Notes under the pieces: model-generated | Databases searched by the model: none | What the model saw: only the letters and a program-made list of their open reading frames with translations | Told to the model about the DNA's origin: nothing | NCBI GenBank assembly: GCA_048938005.1 | Contig: JBHLMQ010000024.1 | Location: 1-43,582, forward strand | From: Promethearchaeota archaeon | GTDB lineage: Archaea > Asgardarchaeota > Lokiarchaeia > Sigyniarchaeales > SOKP01 | Length of the DNA stretch: 43,582 bases | Direction of reading: 5' to 3' | Part shown: piece after piece, positions 2,467-10,902 of the stretch | Layout of the letters: the number at the start of each line of letters is the position of its first letter | Numbering within the stretch: the first letter of the stretch is position 1 | Translations under genes and position numbers: made by a program

Positions 2467-3852
2467 TTGTTTAAACAGGAAATAGATTCTTATTCTTTTA
2501 GGGAAAATAATGAAAGAGAAGTTGAAAAGTTTGTAGGAATTGAAGTTTTTACTACACATGAAATTAAGGGAATAGGAGGAGAATATAAGAAAAATTTCAA
2601 GGATTTTATTGTAAGAGAGATTACTAATAATGGAAAGATCATTGACATTAAAGAAGATTATAAAACTCACCCTTTTTCTGAAGAATTAAAGGATAAATAT
2701 ACAACATTCAATTTAATAAAAATTAATAAAGACACATTTGAAGCCATAAGACAGATTAGTAAAGCTTTAAAAATTCCTTATAGTTCAATCAATTATTCAG
2801 GATTAAAAGACAAATTTTCCATTTCGGCTCAAAAAATCTCCATAAAAGGAGACTACATTAAAAAATTAAAGAATCTAAAATTAAGAGATATTTATATCAG
2901 AAATATATATCCAACAAAAAAATCGGTTAAATTAGGAAGTCACTGGGGTAATCATTTTACAATTATATTAAGAAACGTTGTCGATAATTTTAGGCTAAAA
3001 AGTAGCATAGAGAAATGTATAAATTTTTTAAACACTTATGGATTTCCAAACTATTTTGGACTTCAAAGATTTGGAATTTTTAGACCTAATTCACATATTG
3101 TTGGTCGTTGTATTCTTGAAGGTAAATTTAAGAAAGGATTTGAAGAATTTGTATCAACAACTTATTCAACAGAGTCTCTAGAATCAAAATTAGCTAGGAG
3201 AGAATTTAGAAATACCAGAAATCTTGAGAAAGCGTATGAAAATTTCCCAAAAAGTCTAAAATACGAAAGAAATATGATCAATTATTTAATTGAACACCCA
3301 AACGATTATGAAGGCAGTATTAATGCTCTATCCTCTGATTTAAAAACATTATTAATCAGTTCCTTTCAATCTTATCTATTTAATAAGATGCTTTCCATAA
3401 GAGTGCAGAAAGGTTTTCCTTTATTTAAGCCATTAAAGGGTGATGTCATTAGTATATTAGATGATTTTAATGGAAATATAACACAAGTAAAATACATTTA
3501 TGGGGGTTCTTATGATAGGTATTTGAAGAAAGCACTAAATCTAAATCGAGCTATAATAGCAATCCCTATCATTGGTACCAATACAAATTTAGATGAATTT
3601 CCATTAATGAAACTAATATTCGAAGAAATATTAAAGCAAGAAGACATAAATAAAAACATATTTAATAATAAACTTCCAATTAACCAAGAATTTAAAGGTT
3701 CTATTAGAGCAATGATTGCTAAACCGACTGCGCTAAAATTGTTAGAATTGACTGATGATGAGCTTAATCCTGGAATGAAAAAAGTTAAATTGGAATTTTC
3801 TCTTCAAAAGGGAAGTTATGCAACAATATTAATTAGAGAACTCATTAAATAA
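2467..3852 (+). CDS. truD: tRNA pseudouridine(13) synthase TruD
   Basis: DFIVRE, SGLKDK (catalytic Asp), GNHFTI, FPNYFGLQRFG, SFQSYLFN and FSLQKGSYAT motifs. Confidence 0.95.
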   Translation: MFKQEIDSYSFRENNEREVEKFVGIEVFTTHEIKGIGGEYKKNFKDFIVREITNNGKIIDIKEDYKTHPFSEELKDKYTTFNLIKINKDTFEAIRQISKALKIPYSSINYSGLKDKFSISAQKISIKGDYIKKLKNLKLRDIYIRNIYPTKKSVKLGSHWGNHFTIILRNVVDNFRLKSSIEKCINFLNTYGFPNYFGLQRFGIFRPNSHIVGRCILEGKFKKGFEEFVSTTYSTESLESKLARREFRNTRNLEKAYENFPKSLKYERNMINYLIEHPNDYEGSINALSSDLKTLLISSFQSYLFNKMLSIRVQKGFPLFKPLKGDVISILDDFNGNITQVKYIYGGSYDRYLKKALNLNRAIIAIPIIGTNTNLDEFPLMKLIFEEILKQEDINKNIFNNKLPINQEFKGSIRAMIAKPTALKLLELTDDELNPGMKKVKLEFSLQKGSYATILIRELIK

Positions 3853-5332
3853 TTTTAATCCTATATGATCTTATAGATTCAATCCCAAAAATATCTATTA
3901 CTTTTATTAACACATTATAATTTCCTGGTTTATCATAGTGATATGAGTCTGATTTTAATGTCAATATCCTGATTTTTGGGGTTCTGAAAGAAAACCACAT
4001 ATTTTTAAAAATATTATTTTGGGAATTAAAATCAATAGCCCAATAATCAATCCAATCTGAAAATGATTTTATATTCCTTTTAACTTTCTCAGATATCAAA
4101 TGGCTAAAAGGTATAATATAATCAAGTAATTCTACCATAATTTTATTTTTATTTTGATGGATTTTTACGTTCAAATCTGGGATTTCTTTAATTTGAAATC
4201 CGTTTTTATATTGATTATCTTTAGACAAAAACCCATTGGGTATTGAATTTAATTTATCGTTCTTTTCAATACATAAAAGTTTGAAAGATTGAGGATTTTT
4301 ATTATACATCTTTCTCCAATTTAAAATATCATTGCTTTTATTCAAGTTAAGAATTCTTTTCCTTGTCATATGAATCGCAAGTTTATTTGAATCGCACCCT
4401 ATCCAATGTCTTCCAAGTTTTTCAGCTACAACTAACGTAGTACCTGAGCCTGAAAAAAAATCTGCTACAAGATCACCTTCATTTGTTGATGCTAAAATAA
4501 TTCTTTTTAAAAGACGTTCCGGTTTTTGGGTAGAAAACCCTTGGTATTCTGAAGTATTCGCCCTAATATAAGGAATATCATTCCAGACATCTCTAGGGAA
4601 GATACCTTCCTTTTCTATGTATACTTTCCTTGACAACTTTTTTCCATTATGACTCCCACCTCTATAATAATATATACCTTTATTATCTTTCTTTAATGCA
4701 TTTTTGACTCGATCAGAAAATTCTTGGTATATTTTAGGATCATCATTAAAATTATAATCATCAGATTTTGAATAGAAAAGAATTGTATCATAAGATCTCA
4801 TAAAAAACCGTCTTGTTTTAACTGAAGCGGCGGGATACGCCCATATTATCTCGTTTCTAAAATTTTCAATTCCAAAAATCTCATCCATTATTATTTTTAT
4901 ATAATGAGATATGTGCCAATCTAAATGTATATATATTGAACCATTATGCGCTAATAACTCTTTCATTAAGATAAGCCTTTTATGTAAAAAGTCTAAATAA
5001 GCGTCTAATCCCTCTCCCCACTTATCTCTATAGGCAATCTGATCCACATATTTTCCAACTTCTCCTATTTGAATCTTAAGATTGAAATCTCCTCCTGTAG
5101 CAAACGGAGGATCAATGTATATAAGAGAGATTTTATTTTTGAAGTTTTCTAACAATGAATTCATTACTGTCTTATTCTCTCCCCAAATCAATAGATTTTG
5201 CCAGTTTTGTTCCGATTTAGTATTAATACTGATAGAAGGATAAATATCAAGAATACGGAAAGGAGTAGTTTCATATATTTTTGAAAAATTATCTTTTCTA
5301 TTCAATTTTCCTTTCCAATTCAAATTTACCAT
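3845..5332 (-). CDS. Site-specific DNA amino-methyltransferase (N6/N4, beta class, Type III Mod-like)
   Basis: IYIDPPF catalytic motif precedes TQKPERLL and the DFFSGSGTT SAM-binding motif; C-terminal 'IDYWAIDF...VKVIDIFG'-type tail (IKVIDIFG here). ATG at 5332 preferred over TTG at 5353. Confidence 0.9.
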   Translation of the reverse strand: MVNLNWKGKLNRKDNFSKIYETTPFRILDIYPSISINTKSEQNWQNLLIWGENKTVMNSLLENFKNKISLIYIDPPFATGGDFNLKIQIGEVGKYVDQIAYRDKWGEGLDAYLDFLHKRLILMKELLAHNGSIYIHLDWHISHYIKIIMDEIFGIENFRNEIIWAYPAASVKTRRFFMRSYDTILFYSKSDDYNFNDDPKIYQEFSDRVKNALKKDNKGIYYYRGGSHNGKKLSRKVYIEKEGIFPRDVWNDIPYIRANTSEYQGFSTQKPERLLKRIILASTNEGDLVADFFSGSGTTLVVAEKLGRHWIGCDSNKLAIHMTRKRILNLNKSNDILNWRKMYNKNPQSFKLLCIEKNDKLNSIPNGFLSKDNQYKNGFQIKEIPDLNVKIHQNKNKIMVELLDYIIPFSHLISEKVKRNIKSFSDWIDYWAIDFNSQNNIFKNMWFSFRTPKIRILTLKSDSYHYDKPGNYNVLIKVIDIFGIESIRSYRIKII

Positions 5333-5420
5333 AAATATAAGATAAGAAGGCAAAAATTTTATTTTTATTTTAATTTTAAAAATTATATTCTTAAAAATTA
5401 TATTTGAGAAAATTTTAAGA

Positions 5421-6789: not shown

Positions 6790-7707
6790 ATGACAAATAA
6801 TTATATTCAAGATTATATTAAAGCAGGAAAAGGAGTCATTGCTGCAAAGAAATTAGCAAAAAAGTTAATTAAACCAGGAGAATTACTTTTAGAAATTGCA
6901 AATAAATGTGAAGAGGAAATAATAAAAAATGGATGTGGACTTTCTTTCCCTATCAATATGTCTTTAAATGAAATTGCTGCTCATTATAGCCCTCCAATTG
7001 ATGATCAAACTAAAGTTCCAGAAAAAGGATTATTAAAAATTGATATTGGTGCCCATTATAATGGATATATAGCAGATTCTGCATTTACTATAAATATTGA
7101 TGAGGATCCTAAGCTTCAAAATTATATTGAAGCAGCAAAAGAAGCTCTTGAAGCTGCCATTCAGTTATTTAATCCAGGTGTTAAATTATATGAACTTGGT
7201 GAAGCCATTGCTCAAAAGATTATAAATCGAGGTTTACGTCCTATAACAAATTTAGGTGGCCATGAATTGAAGCAATATAATTTACACGCTGGACCTTTTA
7301 TTCCAAATTACAAGGATAAAATGCACAATCAAATATTAAAACTTGGAGATGCATATGCTTGTGAACCTTTTGCTACTTCTGGTGTAGGAAAAGTCGAGAA
7401 TGGGAAATATGCCTACATATTTCGATTTGTAAAAAGAATAAAAAAAAACATGCCATATGAACACTTAGGATATATGAATCAAATCGAGAAAAATTTTAGA
7501 CACCTTCCTTTTTCGCCACGATGGATAGAAAATAATAACCTTATACCTAAAAATAAAATACAGAGAACTATTGAATCTTTCATAGGAAAAAAAATTCTAG
7601 AGAAATACAATATTCTATTAGAAAAATCTAAAGAACCCGTAGCTCAAGAGGAGCATACTATTGTTATAAACATGGATGGGAATAGAATTGTCACTACTAA
7701 AGAATAA
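6790..7707 (+). CDS. map: Type II methionine aminopeptidase
   Basis: AAHYSP, KIDIGAHYNGYIADSAFT, NLGGH, ACEPFAT and AQEEHT metal-binding motifs. Confidence 0.95.
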   Translation: MTNNYIQDYIKAGKGVIAAKKLAKKLIKPGELLLEIANKCEEEIIKNGCGLSFPINMSLNEIAAHYSPPIDDQTKVPEKGLLKIDIGAHYNGYIADSAFTINIDEDPKLQNYIEAAKEALEAAIQLFNPGVKLYELGEAIAQKIINRGLRPITNLGGHELKQYNLHAGPFIPNYKDKMHNQILKLGDAYACEPFATSGVGKVENGKYAYIFRFVKRIKKNMPYEHLGYMNQIEKNFRHLPFSPRWIENNNLIPKNKIQRTIESFIGKKILEKYNILLEKSKEPVAQEEHTIVINMDGNRIVTTKE

Positions 7708-8551
7708 ATTTAAAGAAAAATTATCTGTTGTCATTTTATGTGCTGGAGAAGGAACGAGACTTAAAGAAATTACAAAGAACATACCTAAACCATTAATTAA
7801 AATAGAGCTATTAAATAATACTACAATTCTTAATCATCTTATTAATAATTTAATTTTTTTAGGAATAAAACAGATTGCTATAGTAATAGGTTATTTAGGT
7901 GATAGGATACGTGATTTCATTTCATCCATAATAAAAAATAATAGATCCTTAGAAGATAAATTGATAATAATTAATACAGAAAATCAATATAAATTAGGGC
8001 CATTATATTCTTTTTTATCTATAACTAATAATAAGATACTCTTTAATCCTGCTAATTCATATATAATGATCCCTGGGGATACAATCTTTCATTTGAGCAT
8101 ATTGAAAGAAGTTTTACTCATAATTTCTAAGAATTACCAGTTGATTCAAGACCATCCCTTCGTTTTTTATAGAAATATCAGATTAAAAACATTAAAAAAA
8201 ATTCATAATAGAATTAAATTAATTTCTACTGTTGAAGTAGAAAAAATTGGCTCAGAAATCGTTTTAAAAAAAATATCTCAGTTAAGAGTATGTGATATTC
8301 TTCCTATGGATGTTTTAAATCAATCTATTCCCATTTTTGCACTAAGTTATGACTTTATCAACGAAATCTTGAAATTAAAGGAAGAAATTCTAGTAAAAAC
8401 AGTTCGGGAGGCAATAAATCATATGATTATTAATGGAAAGAAGATTTTTGCTTTTGAAATTGAAAGTAAAGATTATTTTTATGATATTGATAATATAGAT
8501 GATTTAACTAACTTAAATAAAAAAAAAGAGGACAATAGGCGCTCCGATTAA
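7676..8551 (+). CDS. Nucleotidyltransferase (NTP_transferase/LicC-like family)
   Basis: VILCAGEGTRL...IPKPL N-terminal signature and C-terminal YDIDNIDD; true start may be TTG 7688. The 3' end overlaps the putative RNA antisense. Confidence 0.8.
   Translation: MGIELSLLKNKFKEKLSVVILCAGEGTRLKEITKNIPKPLIKIELLNNTTILNHLINNLIFLGIKQIAIVIGYLGDRIRDFISSIIKNNRSLEDKLIIINTENQYKLGPLYSFLSITNNKILFNPANSYIMIPGDTIFHLSILKEVLLIISKNYQLIQDHPFVFYRNIRLKTLKKIHNRIKLISTVEVEKIGSEIVLKKISQLRVCDILPMDVLNQSIPIFALSYDFINEILKLKEEILVKTVREAINHMIINGKKIFAFEIESKDYFYDIDNIDDLTNLNKKKEDNRRSD
8519..8527 (-). terminator. Oligo-U terminator after the 3' closing helix of the putative ncRNA
   Basis: A9 run on plus (U9 on minus) immediately follows CCTATTGTCCTC. 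Confidence 0.45.
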
Positions 8552-9020
8552 TCTAAGTATAATTGATTCAAAGGAATTAAAGAGGCATAATCCAATGAAG
8601 CAATTATGAAATCAAAGCTCCTATATATATCAATTCCGATTTAATGTAATAAAAGTCCTATTGTCTCAGGTACCATAAAAAAATACGGTAATATTCAACT
8701 AGAGTTCTAGTTTTAATGTTAGGTTGTCTTAGATTCCAAAAATGTGCAAATTAAATCGAGAATTTATTGAAATACTTTAAATCCTGCTCCAAAGTGCTGA
8801 ATTAATCATGTTTCTTCTGTATAATTTATTTAGTGTGTTTTAAGCACTACAGGAACAAATGAAAAATGTGAATTATTTTTATGATAGTATTTTGAATCCT
8901 CAGAATCTAAAAAAAAAAATTATCGGAAATTAAGGATCAATTCAATTTGTGTATACAACTAATCCGGTGTGCAAACCGTAATTGTGTATCTAATTCCAAT
9001 GCAAAACAGACCTATTGTCC
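8528..9020 (-). ncRNA. Putative large structured non-coding RNA (~490 nt), family unknown
   Basis: No ORF in the ORF track across 8552-9163. Minus-strand 5' GGACAATAGG (9020-9011) is perfectly complementary to 3' CCTATTGTCC (8539-8530), which is followed by a U-tract. TATA box about 24 nt upstream. At least 8 internal helices, several with G-U pairs that only form on the minus strand. Confidence 0.6.
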
Positions 9021-9043
9021 AGATAAATATATGATAATTTTAC

Positions 9044-9051
9044 TATTTAAA
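9044..9051 (-). promoter_or_regulatory. Archaeal TATA box (TTTAAATA) for the putative ncRNA
   Basis: Minus-strand TTTAAATA ends 24 nt upstream of the G at 9020, a typical archaeal spacing. The AT-rich background weakens the call. Confidence 0.45.
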
Positions 9052-9163
9052 TCTTGTTATTAATGGAAATAAAGTCTTTACTAATTATTTTAACAAAAAT
9101 ATAATAAATTTAAGATTTTATTTAAATTAATATAAATATCAGAGAATATATTATTTATAAAAT

Positions 9164-9541
9164 ATGAGTGTACCAATAAAGATTGATTTATTCGGAATTG
9201 GCACAATAGAAGGTGATATTATTCGTCATATTGCACCCCTTACTGCTGATGCAATAATTGATAAATTACCTTTTAATTTAAGAGGAAGATTTAGTTTTGG
9301 TTCAAAAAAATATTGGACTTTACCTGGTTTAGAAATTCATAAAGGAACTAATCCTAAATCAAAAACTAATGCTGAAAAAGGTGACATTCTTTATAATCCT
9401 AAAACTGATGAATTAATAATAGTTATTGAAGACATTGAAATGCCAAATAAAGTGAATAAAATTGGGAAAATAAATACTAACATTGAAATACTATTAAAAG
9501 CAAGGAACGGATTAAATACTAAATTATCAAAAAAGCAATAA
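9164..9541 (+). CDS. Cyclophilin-like fold protein (TM1367/DUF369-like)
   Basis: 'RHIAPLTADAIIDKLP...AEKGDILYNP...NKIGKI' matches the pattern of archaeal cyclophilin-like proteins. Confidence 0.65.
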   Translation: MSVPIKIDLFGIGTIEGDIIRHIAPLTADAIIDKLPFNLRGRFSFGSKKYWTLPGLEIHKGTNPKSKTNAEKGDILYNPKTDELIIVIEDIEMPNKVNKIGKINTNIEILLKARNGLNTKLSKKQ

Positions 9542-9546
9542 TAAAT

Positions 9547-10377
9547 ATGGCAGTTTCAAAGAAATTAACAATTGTATTTACAATTTTTTATTTAATTGTC
9601 ATTATTTATATATTTCTATTTTTATATGTACTAGATTTTCAAAATTTTATTATAAGTGCACGACAAAACCTAACTATAATCACACAAGGCGCAAATTATT
9701 TATGGGCTCTATTAATTTCTCTTGGGATATGTTTTTTAGGCTCAGCATCAATAGGGTTCCCAATCCCTTTTCCATTTGTTTTGTTCTCACTATCGAACGC
9801 AGTTTATCTTAAATATTATAACATGGGATTATTAGAAACACAAATATTGCAAAATGGTTCTTTTTGGCTTGAAATTATAGGTCTTGCATTGATAGGGGGT
9901 TTAGGTAGTGCTCTAGGTGAATTCACTGGCTATGCTGTTGGGTATGGAGCGAAAAAGCTAACAGAAGAAAGAAATTCAGATATATTGAATAATGTAGATG
10001 GATTTGGGAAATTAATATTAGAAAACGAAAAACGTACACCTTTATATATATTTCTATTTGCATTGACTCCACTGCCAGATGATATTTTATTCCTGCCACT
10101 TGGTATGATAAAATATCCCTTTTGGAAATGTATTATTCCTGGATGGTTAGGTAAAAACTTTACTACTCTGATTTATTGTTGTTGGCCTATTTTTATAGCA
10201 CTTGGATTCGTTACTCAAGGAATTCAAGCTAACGATACATCAAGCATAATAACGGAAGCAATTTTACTTCTAGTTACAATAACAGTTATGTTTTTTATAA
10301 TGGCTTTTAATTGGAACAAATATCTAGAGAAACGTAAGCAGAAGAAACAAAAAAAAAGGCAAATTCATAAAGTATAA
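9547..10377 (+). CDS. VTT/DedA (SNARE-associated Golgi protein) family membrane protein
   Basis: GLGSALGEFTGYAVGYG and FALTPLPDD...PLG motifs; several TM helices. Confidence 0.85.
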   Translation: MAVSKKLTIVFTIFYLIVIIYIFLFLYVLDFQNFIISARQNLTIITQGANYLWALLISLGICFLGSASIGFPIPFPFVLFSLSNAVYLKYYNMGLLETQILQNGSFWLEIIGLALIGGLGSALGEFTGYAVGYGAKKLTEERNSDILNNVDGFGKLILENEKRTPLYIFLFALTPLPDDILFLPLGMIKYPFWKCIIPGWLGKNFTTLIYCCWPIFIALGFVTQGIQANDTSSIITEAILLLVTITVMFFIMAFNWNKYLEKRKQKKQKKRQIHKV

Positions 10378-10382
10378 CAATA

Positions 10383-10571
10383 TTATATTGAATTTTCTTT
10401 TTCTAAGCAATTCTTACAAACAAAAATAGTTTTCCTTTTTTCCTTAGAATTTTCATCGTAATATATTCTTTTATAAATGAAATTATTACAGATCTCGCAT
10501 ACTGCGGGAGTACGGGTCTCTGCTATCAGTGGCCCTAAATGTTTAAAATTAGATTTAGCATTTGACTTCAT
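10383..10571 (-). CDS. Small CxxC-CxxC zinc-finger protein (62 aa)
   Basis: ATG at 10571, 4 nt after the Alba stop; CEIC and CKNC pairs. Confidence 0.65.
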   Translation of the reverse strand: MKSNAKSNFKHLGPLIAETRTPAVCEICNNFIYKRIYYDENSKEKRKTIFVCKNCLEKENSI

Positions 10572-10575
10572 AAAA

Positions 10576-10902
10576 TTAATATATTGATTTGGTTTGAAGC
10601 GTAATTTCAATTTTTGAAATAATATCTATTTTTTTCTTATTTCCTCTATTATTTTTGTTATAAAAACCACGTTGCCTATTATTTAGATAAGGACGACTTC
10701 CTAAAGAAACATTTGCAATCTCTATTCTAGGATACATACGACTTTTTAAAATTTCAGCAACTTCTACGGCGGTACTGATTTCTTCTCCTTCACCCTTTAT
10801 TAACAGTGATTTTCTACCACCAGAAAATGCAAATATTGCGTCTTTAATTGATTTTTCTTTATCGTTTCTGTTTTTTATTATAATTGTAGTCTCATTGACC
10901 AT
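10576..10902 (-). CDS. Alba family DNA/RNA-binding protein (divergent)
   Basis: 'LIKGEGEEISTAVEVAEILK' and 'ISKIEITL' match the Alba (KARGxAISxAVDVAE / SxIEI) signatures. Confidence 0.75.
   Translation of the reverse strand: MVNETTIIIKNRNDKEKSIKDAIFAFSGGRKSLLIKGEGEEISTAVEVAEILKSRMYPRIEIANVSLGSRPYLNNRQRGFYNKNNRGNKKKIDIISKIEITLQTKSIY

What the first reader, a model, noticed from the sequence alone, without database searches (positions are those of the whole stretch)
8519..9051. Candidate ~490-nt unannotated, highly structured ncRNA with its own promoter and terminator
Seen in sequence: a 610-bp gap without a sizeable ORF in an otherwise gene-dense window. On the minus strand, TTTAAATA (9051-9044) lies 24 nt before GGACAATAGG (9020-9011), which pairs perfectly with CCTATTGTCC (8539-8530); a U9 tract follows. 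Internal helices (plus coordinates): 8991-9000 with 8922-8932; 8979-8985 with 8955-8961, capped by CGGU/ACCG around a UUGCAC loop; 8845-8849 with 8831-8835; 8750-8764 with 8632-8645 (14 bp, one bulge); 8698-8711 hairpin; 8684-8690 with 8671-8677; 8630-8637 with 8573-8580; 8603-8608 with 8586-8591. Several imperfect pairs are G-U on the minus strand but A-C on the plus strand, which points to selection on minus-strand RNA. Established knowledge: it lacks the RNase P GAGGAAAGUCC core, the SRP helix-8 GNRA/CAGG-AGCAG core and tRNA-like ends. Inference: a possibly undescribed Asgard large RNA family.
Basis: partly seen in the sequence, partly recalled or inferred. Interest (0 to 1): 0.85.

Follow-up and report, generated by a model that had tools for sequence, protein, structure and literature searches.

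The report
New structured RNA gene in Asgard archaea
The gap holds a real gene for a roughly 500-base non-coding RNA that folds on itself, matches no described RNA family, and is kept in most searched genomes of one family of Asgard archaea, though what it does is still unknown.

Summary
The finding holds. Window 9020-8519 (minus strand) is a stand-alone gene for a ~500-nt non-coding RNA. It has a conserved archaeal-type TATA/BRE promoter (9063-9044), a terminal stem joining the 5' and 3' ends, and a U9 terminator.

- **Copy number and position:** one copy in its genome, at a conserved position (MetAP / NTP-transferase | RNA | cyclophilin-like).
- **Distribution:** found in most genera of one Asgard family and in no other family searched.
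- **Identity:** it is not RNase P RNA or SRP RNA, which lie on other contigs. No Rfam 15 family matches.
- **Structure:** compensatory changes support the terminal stem (C-G / U·G / U-A; G-C / U-A / A-U; co-varying extensions), the 3' hairpin, a small 5' hairpin, and a hairpin that carries a conserved U6-U13 loop. U·G pairs fix the strand as minus.
- **Expression:** contigs of one metatranscriptome library lie only inside the RNA.
four are window-specific or mutually exclusive.
- **Conservation pattern:** between genera the interior diverges strongly (358-632 nt). Only the promoter, terminal stem, a GCAUUGG motif, the U-loop hairpin and a 3' hairpin persist.

Function is unknown. My best guess, about 0.3, is a protein-bound scaffold or regulatory RNA, possibly with Sm-like proteins on its U-rich parts.

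The parts
9044..9063 (-). Promoter: conserved upstream block ending in the TATA box TTTAAATA (9051-9044)
   Evidence: Columns 9-27 of alignment A1 are invariant or nearly so in 31 of 31 same-genus homologues. A TATA-like box at the same distance (about 23-24 nt before the first base of the terminal stem) is present in the homologues of other genera.
9027..9033 (-). Conserved CATATAT block between the TATA box and the start; possible proximal promoter element (inferred)
   Evidence: A39-T42 are invariant and C38, A43 are at least 90% conserved in A1.
8519..9020 (-). The RNA gene. The start near 9020 is inferred from the TATA distance and the first paired base. The end lies within the U-run 8527-8519.
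   Evidence: RNA-library contigs lie within 8541-9018. Neither end was mapped by reads.
9010..9020 (-). P1, 5' strand (GGACAAUAGGU)
   Evidence: It pairs with 8540-8530. All 60 sequences examined form a 10-19 bp terminal duplex. Positions 4, 10 and 11 covary in 77 sequences. Partner-swap test p = 0.0008.
8530..8540 (-). P1, 3' strand (GCCUAUUGUCC)
   Evidence: As for the 5' strand. In several lineages the stem runs on into the tail: GAAAA/UUUUC, GAAGA/UUUUC, GAU/AUC, GAGAG/CUCUC.
8996..9002 (-). GCAUUGG motif, the most widely conserved internal sequence
   Evidence: T68-G75 are invariant in A1. The motif is kept in the diverged homologues of genera g12, g15, g16, g19, g21, g22 and g23.
8991..9000 (-).
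   Evidence: 76.5% of cells are paired on A1. By my reading of single folded sequences, the UGG/CCA core closes a short local hairpin in g12 and g15, against an insert of about 60 nt here. This was not tested statistically.
8922..8932 (-). P2, 3' strand
   Evidence: In some lineages it competes with the U-loop hairpin for the CCGA bases.
8965..8978 (-). Small hairpin CGGU-UUGCAC-ACCG
   Evidence: 94.4% of cells are paired on A1. Other stem sequences sit at this place in genus g22 (ACAGU/ACUGU, ACAAC/GUUGU). Partner-swap p = 0.015.
8909..8919 (-). Internal U11 run, the loop of the 'U-loop hairpin'
   Evidence: A U-rich run lies 60-170 nt from the 5' end in 71 of 77 homologues. In many lineages it sits in a hairpin loop whose stem covaries: UGUGA/UCACA, UCCGA/UCGGG, UUCUGG/CCCAGA, UUUCC/GGAAA, AAUUUCCG/CGGAGAUU, UUGAUA/UUAUCA. 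In the window itself the closing stem is uncertain.
8844..8858 (-). Central stem P4, 5' strand (UUGUUCCUGUAGUGC)
   Evidence: It pairs with 8797-8783 in the 60-sequence and group RNAalifold folds. One lineage has AUUCCU..UUUUUAAC / GUUGAAA..AGGAAU instead. Partner-swap not significant (p = 0.18). Absent from the shortest homologues.
8783..8797 (-). Central stem P4, 3' strand (GCACUUUGGAGCAGG)
8750..8764 (-).
   Evidence: 14 bp with one bulge, -10.7 kcal/mol. 63.7% of cells are paired on A1. By my reading, a CGAUUU/AAAUCG core recurs in other lineages of the genus with different flanks. Partner-swap not significant (p = 0.23).
8632..8645 (-). P5, 3' strand
8663..8667 (-). GAGAC, invariant within the genus and unpaired in most folds
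   Evidence: G404-C408 are invariant in 31 of 31 sequences of A1. By eye it is absent from the homologues of genera g16 and g23.
8620..8624 (-). Internal AUAGG, a copy of part of the P1 5' strand, just before the 3' hairpin
   Evidence: A3, T4, A5 and G6 are invariant in 54 of 54 sequences of A2. It could pair with CCUAU (8539-8535). That pairing loses its fifth pair in genus g22, where P1 keeps its own through a compensatory change.
8541..8618 (-). 3' hairpin. Hb: 8618-8610 with 8549-8541. Hc: 8607-8601 with 8565-8559. Hd: 8599-8596 with 8570-8567. He: 8593-8591 with 8575-8573.
   Evidence: Model R1 scores the sense strand at 57-115 bits in 70 loci and the antisense strand of the same loci at 28-43 bits. 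87.2% of cells are paired against 35-52% when slid. Nine pairs change on both sides (8 of 500 shuffles as high). Covariation score is 0.099 against 0.081 (0 of 500). Independent folds of 56 distinct sequences give the same nested hairpin, with Hc as AUAAUUG/CAAUUAU, CAGAUUUG/CAAAUCUG, UCAGGAUUA/UAAUUCUGA, UCAGGAGA/UCUUCUGA or AAGAUUC/GAAU.CU.
8519..8527 (-). U9 run: archaeal-type terminator and 3' tail
   Evidence: A U-rich tail follows the 3' strand in all 31 sequences of A1 and in the homologues of other genera.
7676..8551 (+). Neighbour: NTP-transferase-domain ORF, convergent. Its last 22-32 nt overlap the 3' end of the RNA.
   Evidence: Pfam PF00483 and PF12804. It is the least conserved neighbour, at 36-84% identity in the genus, and is missing in the g16 locus examined, where the RNA remains.
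9164..9541 (+). Neighbour: cyclophilin-like ORF, transcribed divergently from the RNA
   Evidence: Pfam PF18050 and PF04126. Next to the RNA in 31 of 31 same-genus loci and 8 of 8 loci of g22, g21 and g19. In the g15 genome G049 it lies about 9.5 kb away.

Best explanation
Window 9020-8519 (minus strand) is a stand-alone gene for a stable, structured non-coding RNA of about 500 nt. It founds a family that is not in Rfam.

Transcription starts about 23 nt after a conserved TATA box and ends in a U-run.

Shown here by conservation and compensatory change:
- The two ends pair in a 10-19 bp terminal stem (P1).
- A GCAUUGG motif follows P1.
- A small hairpin and a hairpin presenting a U-rich loop of 6-13 U form the 5' part.
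- A long nested hairpin lies just before the 3' strand of P1.
- Between them is a lineage-specific interior that can shrink or grow. Total length runs from 358 to 632 nt.

Inferred, not shown: the RNA works as a protein-bound scaffold or regulatory RNA rather than as an enzyme.
- The sequence-invariant core of P1 plus GCAUUGG would be the docking site of a specific protein.
- The U-rich loop and the U-tail would be sites for Sm-like (LSm/SmAP) proteins, of which the genome encodes at least three.
- P1 would also shield both ends from exonucleases.

My odds: real conserved ncRNA gene of a new family about 0.9; scaffold or regulator of an RNP about 0.45; Sm-like proteins as partners about 0.3.
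For: **Gene signals**
- The promoter block is invariant in 31 of 31 same-genus homologues, and the U-tail is kept.
- The same TATA distance, 3' partner and U-run occur in other genera.

**Single copy, vertical inheritance**
- One full-length copy in the genome.
- Synteny is kept in 31 of 31 same-genus loci, in 8 of 8 loci of three other genera, and at diverged loci of g12, g16 and g23.

**Distribution**
- blastn: 23 of 24 same-genus relatives and 75 of 135 family genomes, own genome included.
- 3'-domain model R1: 90 of 131 family genomes, and 0 of 19 in the three other families of the order.
- 5' signature pattern: 76 of 135 family genomes in 8 of 13 genera, against 2 hits of the reversed control.

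**Structure**
- P1 position 4 is C-G, U·G or U-A. Position 10 is G-C, U-A or A-U. Position 11 is U-G/U-A or A-U. There are 28 distinct end combinations in 77 sequences.
- Stem extensions co-vary on both sides.
- Partner-swap p = 0.0008 for P1.
- 3' hairpin statistics and its five versions of stem Hc.
- U-loop hairpin with at least six different stems.
- Folding z-scores.

**Strand**
- Conserved U·G pairs.
- z = -3.62 on the minus strand against -1.46 on the plus strand.

**RNA-library cover**
- Ten contigs of metatranscriptome run X20 were laid, and the eight listed lie within 8541-9018.
- Two of them span the internal U-run.
- Two loose ends are adapter sequence.

**Possible partners**
- Three LSM genes score over the Pfam cut-off.
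- That archaeal Sm-like proteins bind U-rich RNA is established knowledge, which I recall. For papers on it I saw only a search listing.
Against: - No experiment or read-level mapping shows the transcript ends, its strand or its abundance. Contigs cannot show these, and DNA can be present in an RNA library.
- The U-run could be an ordinary feature of a genome with about 27% GC, or an internal termination signal rather than a protein site.
- GC content is not raised above background, unlike my reading by eye of the RNase P and SRP RNAs of the same genome.
- The interior turns over fast. Several window helices are not conserved. Most partner-swap tests were not significant.
- Covariation statistics on MAFFT or model-fitted alignments are modest.
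- No partner protein is linked by gene neighbourhood. The neighbours are housekeeping or metabolic genes.
- The 5' domain has competing pairings, so its fold is not settled.
Confidence: 0.55

Rival explanations
1. Trans-acting antisense regulator. The conserved GCAUUGG region near the 5' end would be a seed that pairs with mRNAs or another RNA. The rest of the molecule would provide stability.
For: GCAUUGG and its neighbours are the most widely conserved internal sequence. The conservation exceeds what pairing inside the RNA needs. A clamped 5'/3' stem and a U-tail suit a long-lived regulator.
Against: Part of the motif (UUGG) appears to be the 5' strand of P2, so it may not be free. A 7-nt seed cannot be assigned targets in a 3.7-Mb AT-rich genome. 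I ran no target search with controls. About 500 nt is long for a seed-type regulator.
Confidence: 0.15
2. Two products from one gene. The internal U-run (8919-8909) stops the archaeal polymerase part of the time, giving a short RNA of about 110 nt alongside the full-length RNA. The ratio may be regulated.
For: A U6-U13 run at a conserved distance from the start occurs in 71 of 77 homologues. That oligo-U tracts act as archaeal termination signals is established knowledge, which I recall.
Against: RNA-library contigs run across the U-run (records 25 and 26). The 5' strand of P1 would have no partner in a short form. In many lineages the run sits in a covarying hairpin loop, which suggests it is a displayed element.
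Confidence: 0.12
3. A new large ribozyme or other RNA whose function needs a complex tertiary fold.
For: It has several conserved helices, an invariant unpaired GAGAC within the genus and a closing stem, as many large structured RNAs have.
Against: Only the ends, the U-loop hairpin and a 3' hairpin survive between genera. The region holding GAGAC, P4 and P5 is missing or replaced in the homologues of 358-431 nt and in g16/g23. GC content is low and z-scores are modest.
Confidence: 0.06
4. A DNA-level element: a replication origin with inverted repeat boxes, or only the regulatory region of the flanking genes. No functional RNA.
For: The 9-bp inverted repeat GGACAATAG / CTATTGTCC is sequence-conserved. 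The window has a third GACAATAGG copy (near 8665-8656). Gene orientation and cumulative GC skew turn near 10.2 kb.
Against: The repeat changes through U·G intermediates and by compensatory extension on one strand only, which is meaningful for RNA and not for duplex DNA. The third copy is not conserved. No orc1/cdc6 was seen among the ten neighbouring ORFs scanned. The promoter and U-tail are correctly placed. RNA-library contigs cover it.
Confidence: 0.03
5. A highly diverged member of a described family that the covariance models miss.
For: The SRP RNA of this genome already scores below Rfam's cut-off (63 vs 96.5 bits). So Asgard RNAs of this lineage can be divergent.
Against: RNase P and SRP RNAs are accounted for elsewhere. 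No family appears at E<=10 or E<=1, even with permissive filters, for the window and four divergent homologues. No tRNA or tmRNA was found.
Confidence: 0.03

Closest known systems
Large orphan structured ncRNAs of bacteria, such as OLE RNA (comparison from my own knowledge; not tested here)
   Same: Several hundred nucleotides long, with its own promoter and terminator. Conserved helices with covariation. Restricted to one lineage. Function not deducible from sequence. OLE works as part of a ribonucleoprotein.
   Different: No sequence or model similarity. The host is archaeal (Asgard). The interior is much less conserved. There is no linked partner gene, whereas OLE has neighbouring partner genes (recalled).
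Eukaryotic scaffold RNAs with a conserved closing helix and fast-evolving interior, such as telomerase RNA, RNase MRP RNA and 7SK (from my own knowledge)
   Same: The ends are brought together by a conserved long-range helix. A few short conserved motifs persist. Length varies widely between relatives (358-632 nt here). There is a U-rich 3' end.
   Different: No template, pseudoknot or P4-type core was identified. No homology was detected. No reverse transcriptase or MRP proteins were examined.
Sm-class / LSm-bound RNAs (snRNAs; archaeal SmAP-bound sRNAs)
   Same: Conserved internal U-run and U-tail. The genome encodes three LSM-domain proteins over the cut-off.
   Different: The U-run lies in a hairpin loop, not between two hairpins. 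Its 3' flank is variable. Binding was not tested.
Y RNA / Ro60 particles
   Same: A terminal stem formed by the 5' and 3' ends with a sequence-conserved core. A U-tail. A pyrimidine-rich internal loop.
   Different: About five times longer. No TROVE (Ro60) gene was found in the 95%-complete genome.
Archaeal RNase P RNA and SRP RNA
   Same: Stand-alone archaeal RNA genes with a TATA promoter and a terminal stem.
   Different: Both are present elsewhere in the same genome. The covariance models do not match this locus.

Membership tests
RNase P RNA, archaeal (RF00373) | Match to the covariance model (conserved core, P4) | tested here: not met
   No hit in the window at the gathering score or at E<=10 in 8300-9300. 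The genome's RNase P RNA is on C62:17914-18237, 119.4 bits.
SRP RNA, archaeal (RF01857) | Match to the covariance model (helix 8 / Alu domain) | tested here: not met
   No hit at this locus. The best genome hit is C15:1951-2229, 63 bits, E 1.3e-13, below the 96.5-bit cut-off.
Any Rfam 15 family (4227 models) | Score at or above the gathering threshold, or any hit with a low E-value | tested here: not met
   0 hits in the 43,582-nt window. Only snoR10 (plus strand, E 2.7) and freshwater-2 (E 7.7) at E<=10. 0 hits at E<=1 in four divergent homologous loci.
tRNA / tmRNA | ARAGORN detection | tested here: not met
   0 genes in 8300-9300.
C/D-box or H/ACA guide sRNA | C and D boxes next to the terminal stem, or an ACA box 3 nt from the 3' end (features recalled) | tested here: not met
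   No Rfam C/D or H/ACA family on the minus strand at E<=10. Reading, the 3' end is ...CCUAUUGUCC plus U-run, with no box D or ACA next to it.
Sm-class RNA | Single-stranded U-rich Sm site between hairpins, bound by an Sm/LSm ring (consensus recalled) | tested here: inconclusive
   A U6-U13 run is conserved in 71 of 77 sequences, but it mostly lies in a hairpin loop with variable flanks. LSM genes are present. Binding is not testable here.
Y RNA / Ro RNP | Ro60 (TROVE) partner gene in the genome | tested here: not met
   PF05731: 0 matches in the own genome (95.28% complete). The control hit 2 of 14 genomes.
Mobile element with terminal inverted repeats (MITE-like) | Many copies, variable locations | tested here: not met
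   One full-length copy in the genome. One copy at the same syntenic position across genera.
Protein-coding gene | Conserved open reading frame | tested here: not met
   Only two 38-aa ORFs touch the gap. Homologues differ by many indels that, by my reading of the alignment, are not multiples of three. No separate coding-potential test was run.

The most novel reading that the evidence does not exclude
The RNA is the scaffold of a lineage-specific Asgard ribonucleoprotein in which an LSm/SmAP ring sits on the displayed U-rich loop (and/or the U-tail) and a second, sequence-specific protein reads the invariant P1 core plus GCAUUGG. That would make it a prokaryotic RNA built on the same plan as eukaryotic Sm-class and LSm-class RNPs (closing helix, U-rich ring site, freely evolving arms), in the closest archaeal relatives of eukaryotes.
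Probability: 0.1. Interest if true: 0.9.

Novelty: categorically new. Interest (0 to 1): 0.68.

Why it matters
Large, conserved, structured RNAs outside the universal set (rRNA, tRNA, RNase P, SRP) are rare in archaea. I met no description of one in Asgard archaea in the three literature searches I ran, where I saw listings only. This one has clear gene signals, covariation, one copy per genome and cover in an RNA library, so it is a concrete target.

It offers a new RNA family for annotation. It now lies in a 612-bp 'empty' gap in dozens of genomes. It also gives a marker for one Asgard family.

If it is an RNP scaffold with Sm-like partners, it gives a testable case for how RNP architecture looked in the archaeal relatives of eukaryotes.

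'Categorically new' is meant in a limited sense: there is no detectable relation to any described RNA family. The general kind, an orphan structured ncRNA gene, is familiar from bacteria, and the function is unknown.

Tried and rejected
**Known families.** Rfam at gathering and permissive thresholds, RNase P, SRP, tRNA/tmRNA: nothing at this locus.

**Replication origin or repeat boxes.** I considered this because GACAATAGG occurs three times in the window. I rejected it. The third copy is not conserved, the repeats change as RNA pairs do, and none of the ten neighbouring ORFs scanned is orc1/cdc6.

**Alternative helix AUAGG/CCUAU.** RNAalifold proposed it. It loses its fifth pair in genus g22, where P1 covaries, so I left it out of model R1. 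It remains unexplained.

**Shared promoter with another RNA gene.** The 35-nt match at C24 lies next to no Rfam family or tRNA.

**Organism name.** The search for related loci with the NTP-transferase returned one 'uncultured archaeon' record and six Psychrobacter loci at 32% identity. This did not help.

**Wider distribution.** The 5' signature hits 13 of 265 genomes outside the family, against 4 control hits. All 13 lack a TATA box, a 3' partner and a U-run, so I count them as chance. Also chance: the hits in G051 (C201) and G052, and the second hits in G041 and G148.

**Partner-swap duplex test.** Significant only for P1 and CGGU/ACCG. For the other helices the padded windows include neighbouring conserved strands, so the test says little.

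**Regex extraction of stem Hc.** Too brittle, not used.

**Search for P5 by duplexfold.** The script stopped with an error after four sequences. I used it only as a lead.

**rRNA comparison.**
- The own genome has no 16S and only part of a 23S.
- In two single-contig relatives, only a 123-nt piece matching the 3' end of the 16S model was found.
- The locus around it is not a 16S gene: GC is 0.30 and no match came up.
- So the idea that part of the 5' conserved segment resembles a conserved 16S loop, which I recalled, could not be tested. I dropped it.

**mafft-qinsi.** Could not run because a helper program is missing.

**RNA-library cover.** The flanking genes had no cover in run X20 (0 depth in 25 of 30 bins). 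Run X20 shared few sampled words (0.04), and its contigs are 80-95% like the window, so they come from relatives.

**Closed or unread sources.** No paper was read. From I saw only listings (titles and the first lines of abstracts). Supplements were not consulted.


Full report
**What is in the sequence**

Between the ORFs 7676..8551 (+) and 9164..9541 (+) lies a 612-bp gap that only two 38-aa ORFs touch. Read on the minus strand, it holds:
- TTTAAATA at 9051-9044;
- 23 nt further, GGACAATAGG at 9020-9011;
- about 470 nt downstream, its exact complement CCTATTGTCC at 8539-8530;
- then UC and nine U (8527-8519).

Two of them (8632-8645 and 8630-8637) use the same bases.

The minus strand folds to -104.2 kcal/mol, z = -3.62, with 0 of 100 dinucleotide shuffles as good. 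The plus strand gives z = -1.46, 11 of 100. GC is 0.22-0.27 across the region, the same as the flanks.

**It is not a known RNA**

- No Rfam 15 family reaches its gathering score anywhere in the window.
- With permissive filters on 8300-9300, only two chance-level hits appear (snoR10 on the plus strand, E 2.7; freshwater-2, E 7.7).
- ARAGORN finds no tRNA or tmRNA.
- The genome's RNase P RNA is on contig C62 (119.4 bits). An SRP RNA candidate is on C15 (63 bits, E 1.3e-13, under the 96.5-bit cut-off).
- Four divergent homologous loci also give no Rfam hit at E<=1.

The genome is Asgard-like. It has an actin gene scoring 442 bits and two profilin-like hits just under the cut-off, a family that hits none of the 14 control genomes. 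I could not verify the class. The only named relative record reads 'uncultured archaeon'.

**Conservation and position**

- The genome holds one full-length copy.
- blastn finds it in 23 of 24 same-genus relatives at 94% down to 66% identity. It finds it in 75 of 135 genomes of the family, own genome included.
- In the 31-sequence alignment A1, the promoter block, the region around GCATTGG, GAGAC, and the last roughly 100 nt with the U-tail are invariant or nearly so. The middle diverges.
- The gene order MetAP, NTP-transferase, RNA on the opposite strand, cyclophilin-like, VTT is kept in the 31 same-genus loci examined. Cyclophilin-like and VTT are found in 31 of 31. NTP-transferase is found in 29 of 31, the two misses being truncated loci.
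- The same order holds in 8 of 8 loci from genera g22, g21 and g19.
- At the same spot in g12, g16 and g23, nhmmer finds only the two ends.
- In the g16 locus the NTP-transferase is gone and the RNA remains. In g15 the RNA stays beside the NTP-transferase while the cyclophilin-like gene lies about 9.5 kb away.

**Distribution**

- A covariance model of the 3' domain (R1) finds the RNA in 90 of 131 family genomes: g1 47/52, g22 37/42, g21 5/8, g19 1/1. It finds none in 19 genomes of the three other families of the order.
- The 5' signature GGAYAATAG, 2-16 nt, GCATTGG occurs in 76 of 135 family genomes across 8 of 13 genera, usually once. The reversed control pattern has 2 hits.
- Across 400 genomes of the phylum, 13 of 265 genomes outside the family also match, against 4 control hits. 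None of these 13 has a TATA box upstream or a 3' partner followed by a U-run, so I count them as chance.
- The in-family hits do have a TATA box at the right distance and CTATT[G/A]TCC plus a U-run 358 to 632 nt downstream.
- It was not found in g13, g14, g17 and g20, which are 1-2 genomes each.

**Structure: what is supported**

*Terminal stem P1*
- In 77 full-length sequences there are 28 distinct end combinations.
- Position 4 is C-G, U·G or U-A. Position 10 is G-C, U-A or A-U. Position 11 is U-G/U-A or A-U.
- All 60 sequences of the g1/g22 set form a 10-19 bp duplex.
- Lineage-specific 5' extensions are matched at the 3' side: GAAAA with UUUUC, GAAGA with UUUUC, GAU with AUC, GAGAG with CUCUC.
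- Swapping partners between clusters weakens the duplex (p = 0.0008).

*3' hairpin*
- Model R1 scores the sense strand at 57-115 bits in 70 loci, and the antisense of the same loci at 28-43 bits.
- On the model-fitted alignment, 87.2% of cells pair, against 35-52% when partners are slid.
- Nine pairs change on both sides (8 of 500 shuffles reach this).
- The covariation score is 0.099 against 0.081 (0 of 500). Such an alignment leans towards its model.
- Independent single-sequence folds of 56 distinct sequences give the same nested hairpin. The outer stem forms in all but one mis-cut sequence, and L024 and L052 differ inside.
- Stem Hc occurs in at least five compensatory versions.

*Smaller elements*
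- The small CGGU/ACCG hairpin pairs in 94.4% of cells. It has other stems in g22. Partner-swap p = 0.015.
- A U6-U13 run lies 60-170 nt from the 5' end in 71 of 77 sequences. In many lineages it is the loop of a hairpin whose stem differs between lineages, with at least six versions.

*Strand*
Two U·G pairs of the 3' hairpin are kept in 67 and 58 of 68 distinct sequences, and P1 passes through U·G. On the plus strand these would be A·C mismatches.

**Structure: what is weak**

Its covariation score does not beat shuffles (99 of 500).
- H4 (42.2%) and H7 (39.5%) look window-specific. H9 conflicts with stem Hc. H8 overlaps H5.
- P4 and P5 recur in the group folds with partly different sequences, but the swap tests are not significant.
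- The 5' domain has competing pairings.
- Between genera the interior is replaced. Homologues of 358 nt (g19) and 362 nt (g15) lack most of the centre, and those of g12 reach 632 nt.
- Folding z-scores of nine homologues average -2.59 (sense) and -2.04 (antisense), with 20 shuffles each.

**Expression**

- Of 20 public runs that hold the stretch, 19 are listed as DNA (a guessed label) from sediment, mangrove or soil samples. One is a soil metatranscriptome.
- Ten contigs of the RNA library were laid on 7000-10600. They are 80-95% like the window, so they come from relatives. The eight listed lie within 8541-9018.
- Two of them (8689-9006 and 8693-8951) cross the internal U-run.
- Loose ends at 8541 and 9005 are adapter sequence.
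- Contigs cannot show strand, ends or level, and an RNA library can hold DNA. This is supportive, not proof.

**How it most likely works**

Shown: a promoter, a terminator, a clamped 5'/3' stem, a displayed U-rich loop, a 3' hairpin, and a short invariant motif, all around an interior that evolves freely.

Inferred: this is the pattern of a protein-bound scaffold or regulatory RNA. Few short sequence-specific elements are under strong selection, and the arms may change.
- The invariant core of P1 with GCAUUGG is a likely docking site for a specific protein.
- The U-loop and U-tail are plausible sites for Sm-like proteins. The genome encodes three over the Pfam cut-off.
- No Ro60/TROVE gene was found, which speaks against a Y-RNA-like particle.

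The rivals are an antisense regulator using GCAUUGG as a seed, a short and a long isoform produced at the internal U-run, a ribozyme, a DNA element, and a missed known family. Each is given with its odds in its own section.

**Novelty and verdict**

- The locus is a real, conserved, structured ncRNA gene with no detectable relation to any described family.
- It is restricted, as far as these searches go, to one family of Asgard archaea.
- Three literature searches (listings only, no paper read) showed no description of it.
- Its function is unknown. My mechanism is a reasoned guess.
- I rate it interesting (0.68): a concrete new RNA in a lineage of high evolutionary interest, but narrow in distribution and without functional evidence.

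Noticed in passing
G000 contig C15:1951-2229 (locus L030): The genome's best SRP RNA candidate scores 63 bits (E 1.3e-13). That is well under Rfam's 96.5-bit gathering score, so standard annotation would probably miss the SRP RNA of this lineage.
   Followed up: no
window 8530-8551: The NTP-transferase-domain ORF (7676-8551, +) runs 22-32 nt into the 3' end of the convergent RNA gene. This ORF is far less conserved (36-84% identity in the genus) than its neighbours, and it is absent from the g16 locus examined.
   Followed up: partly
window 8620-8625: An internal copy of the P1 5'-strand bases AAUAG(G) is invariant in 54 of 54 sequences. It could compete with the 5' end for the 3' strand. It may be a conformational switch, or it may stack on the shifted P1 of the GAAAAGGACAAU lineage.
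   Followed up: partly
loci L028 and L030 compared with window 8519-9020: By eye, the RNase P and SRP RNAs of this AT-rich genome are much GC-richer than the genome. The new RNA has background GC (0.27-0.31). That is unusual for a structured RNA.
   Followed up: no
G000 whole genome: The assembly has no 16S rRNA hit, and only a partial 23S at the end of contig C41. The single-contig relative G006 also gave no 16S hit, and G022 gave only a 123-nt piece matching the 3' end of the 16S model.
   Followed up: no
window 3845-5353 (-): A 502-aa ORF has an N6/N4 DNA methylase domain (PF01555, E 2.5e-49), set among housekeeping genes (TruD, class II aaRS, MetAP).
   Followed up: no
window 8536-9052, DNA run X19: One 521-nt DNA contig covers just the RNA gene and its promoter (record 21). 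Probably the conserved RNA gene assembles across strains while the flanks break.
   Followed up: no
G120 (C57:3288-3388 and C117:913-1013): One g22 genome has two sense hits of the 3'-domain model on different contigs. This could be a duplicate gene or a mixed-strain assembly; contamination is listed as 9.
   Followed up: no
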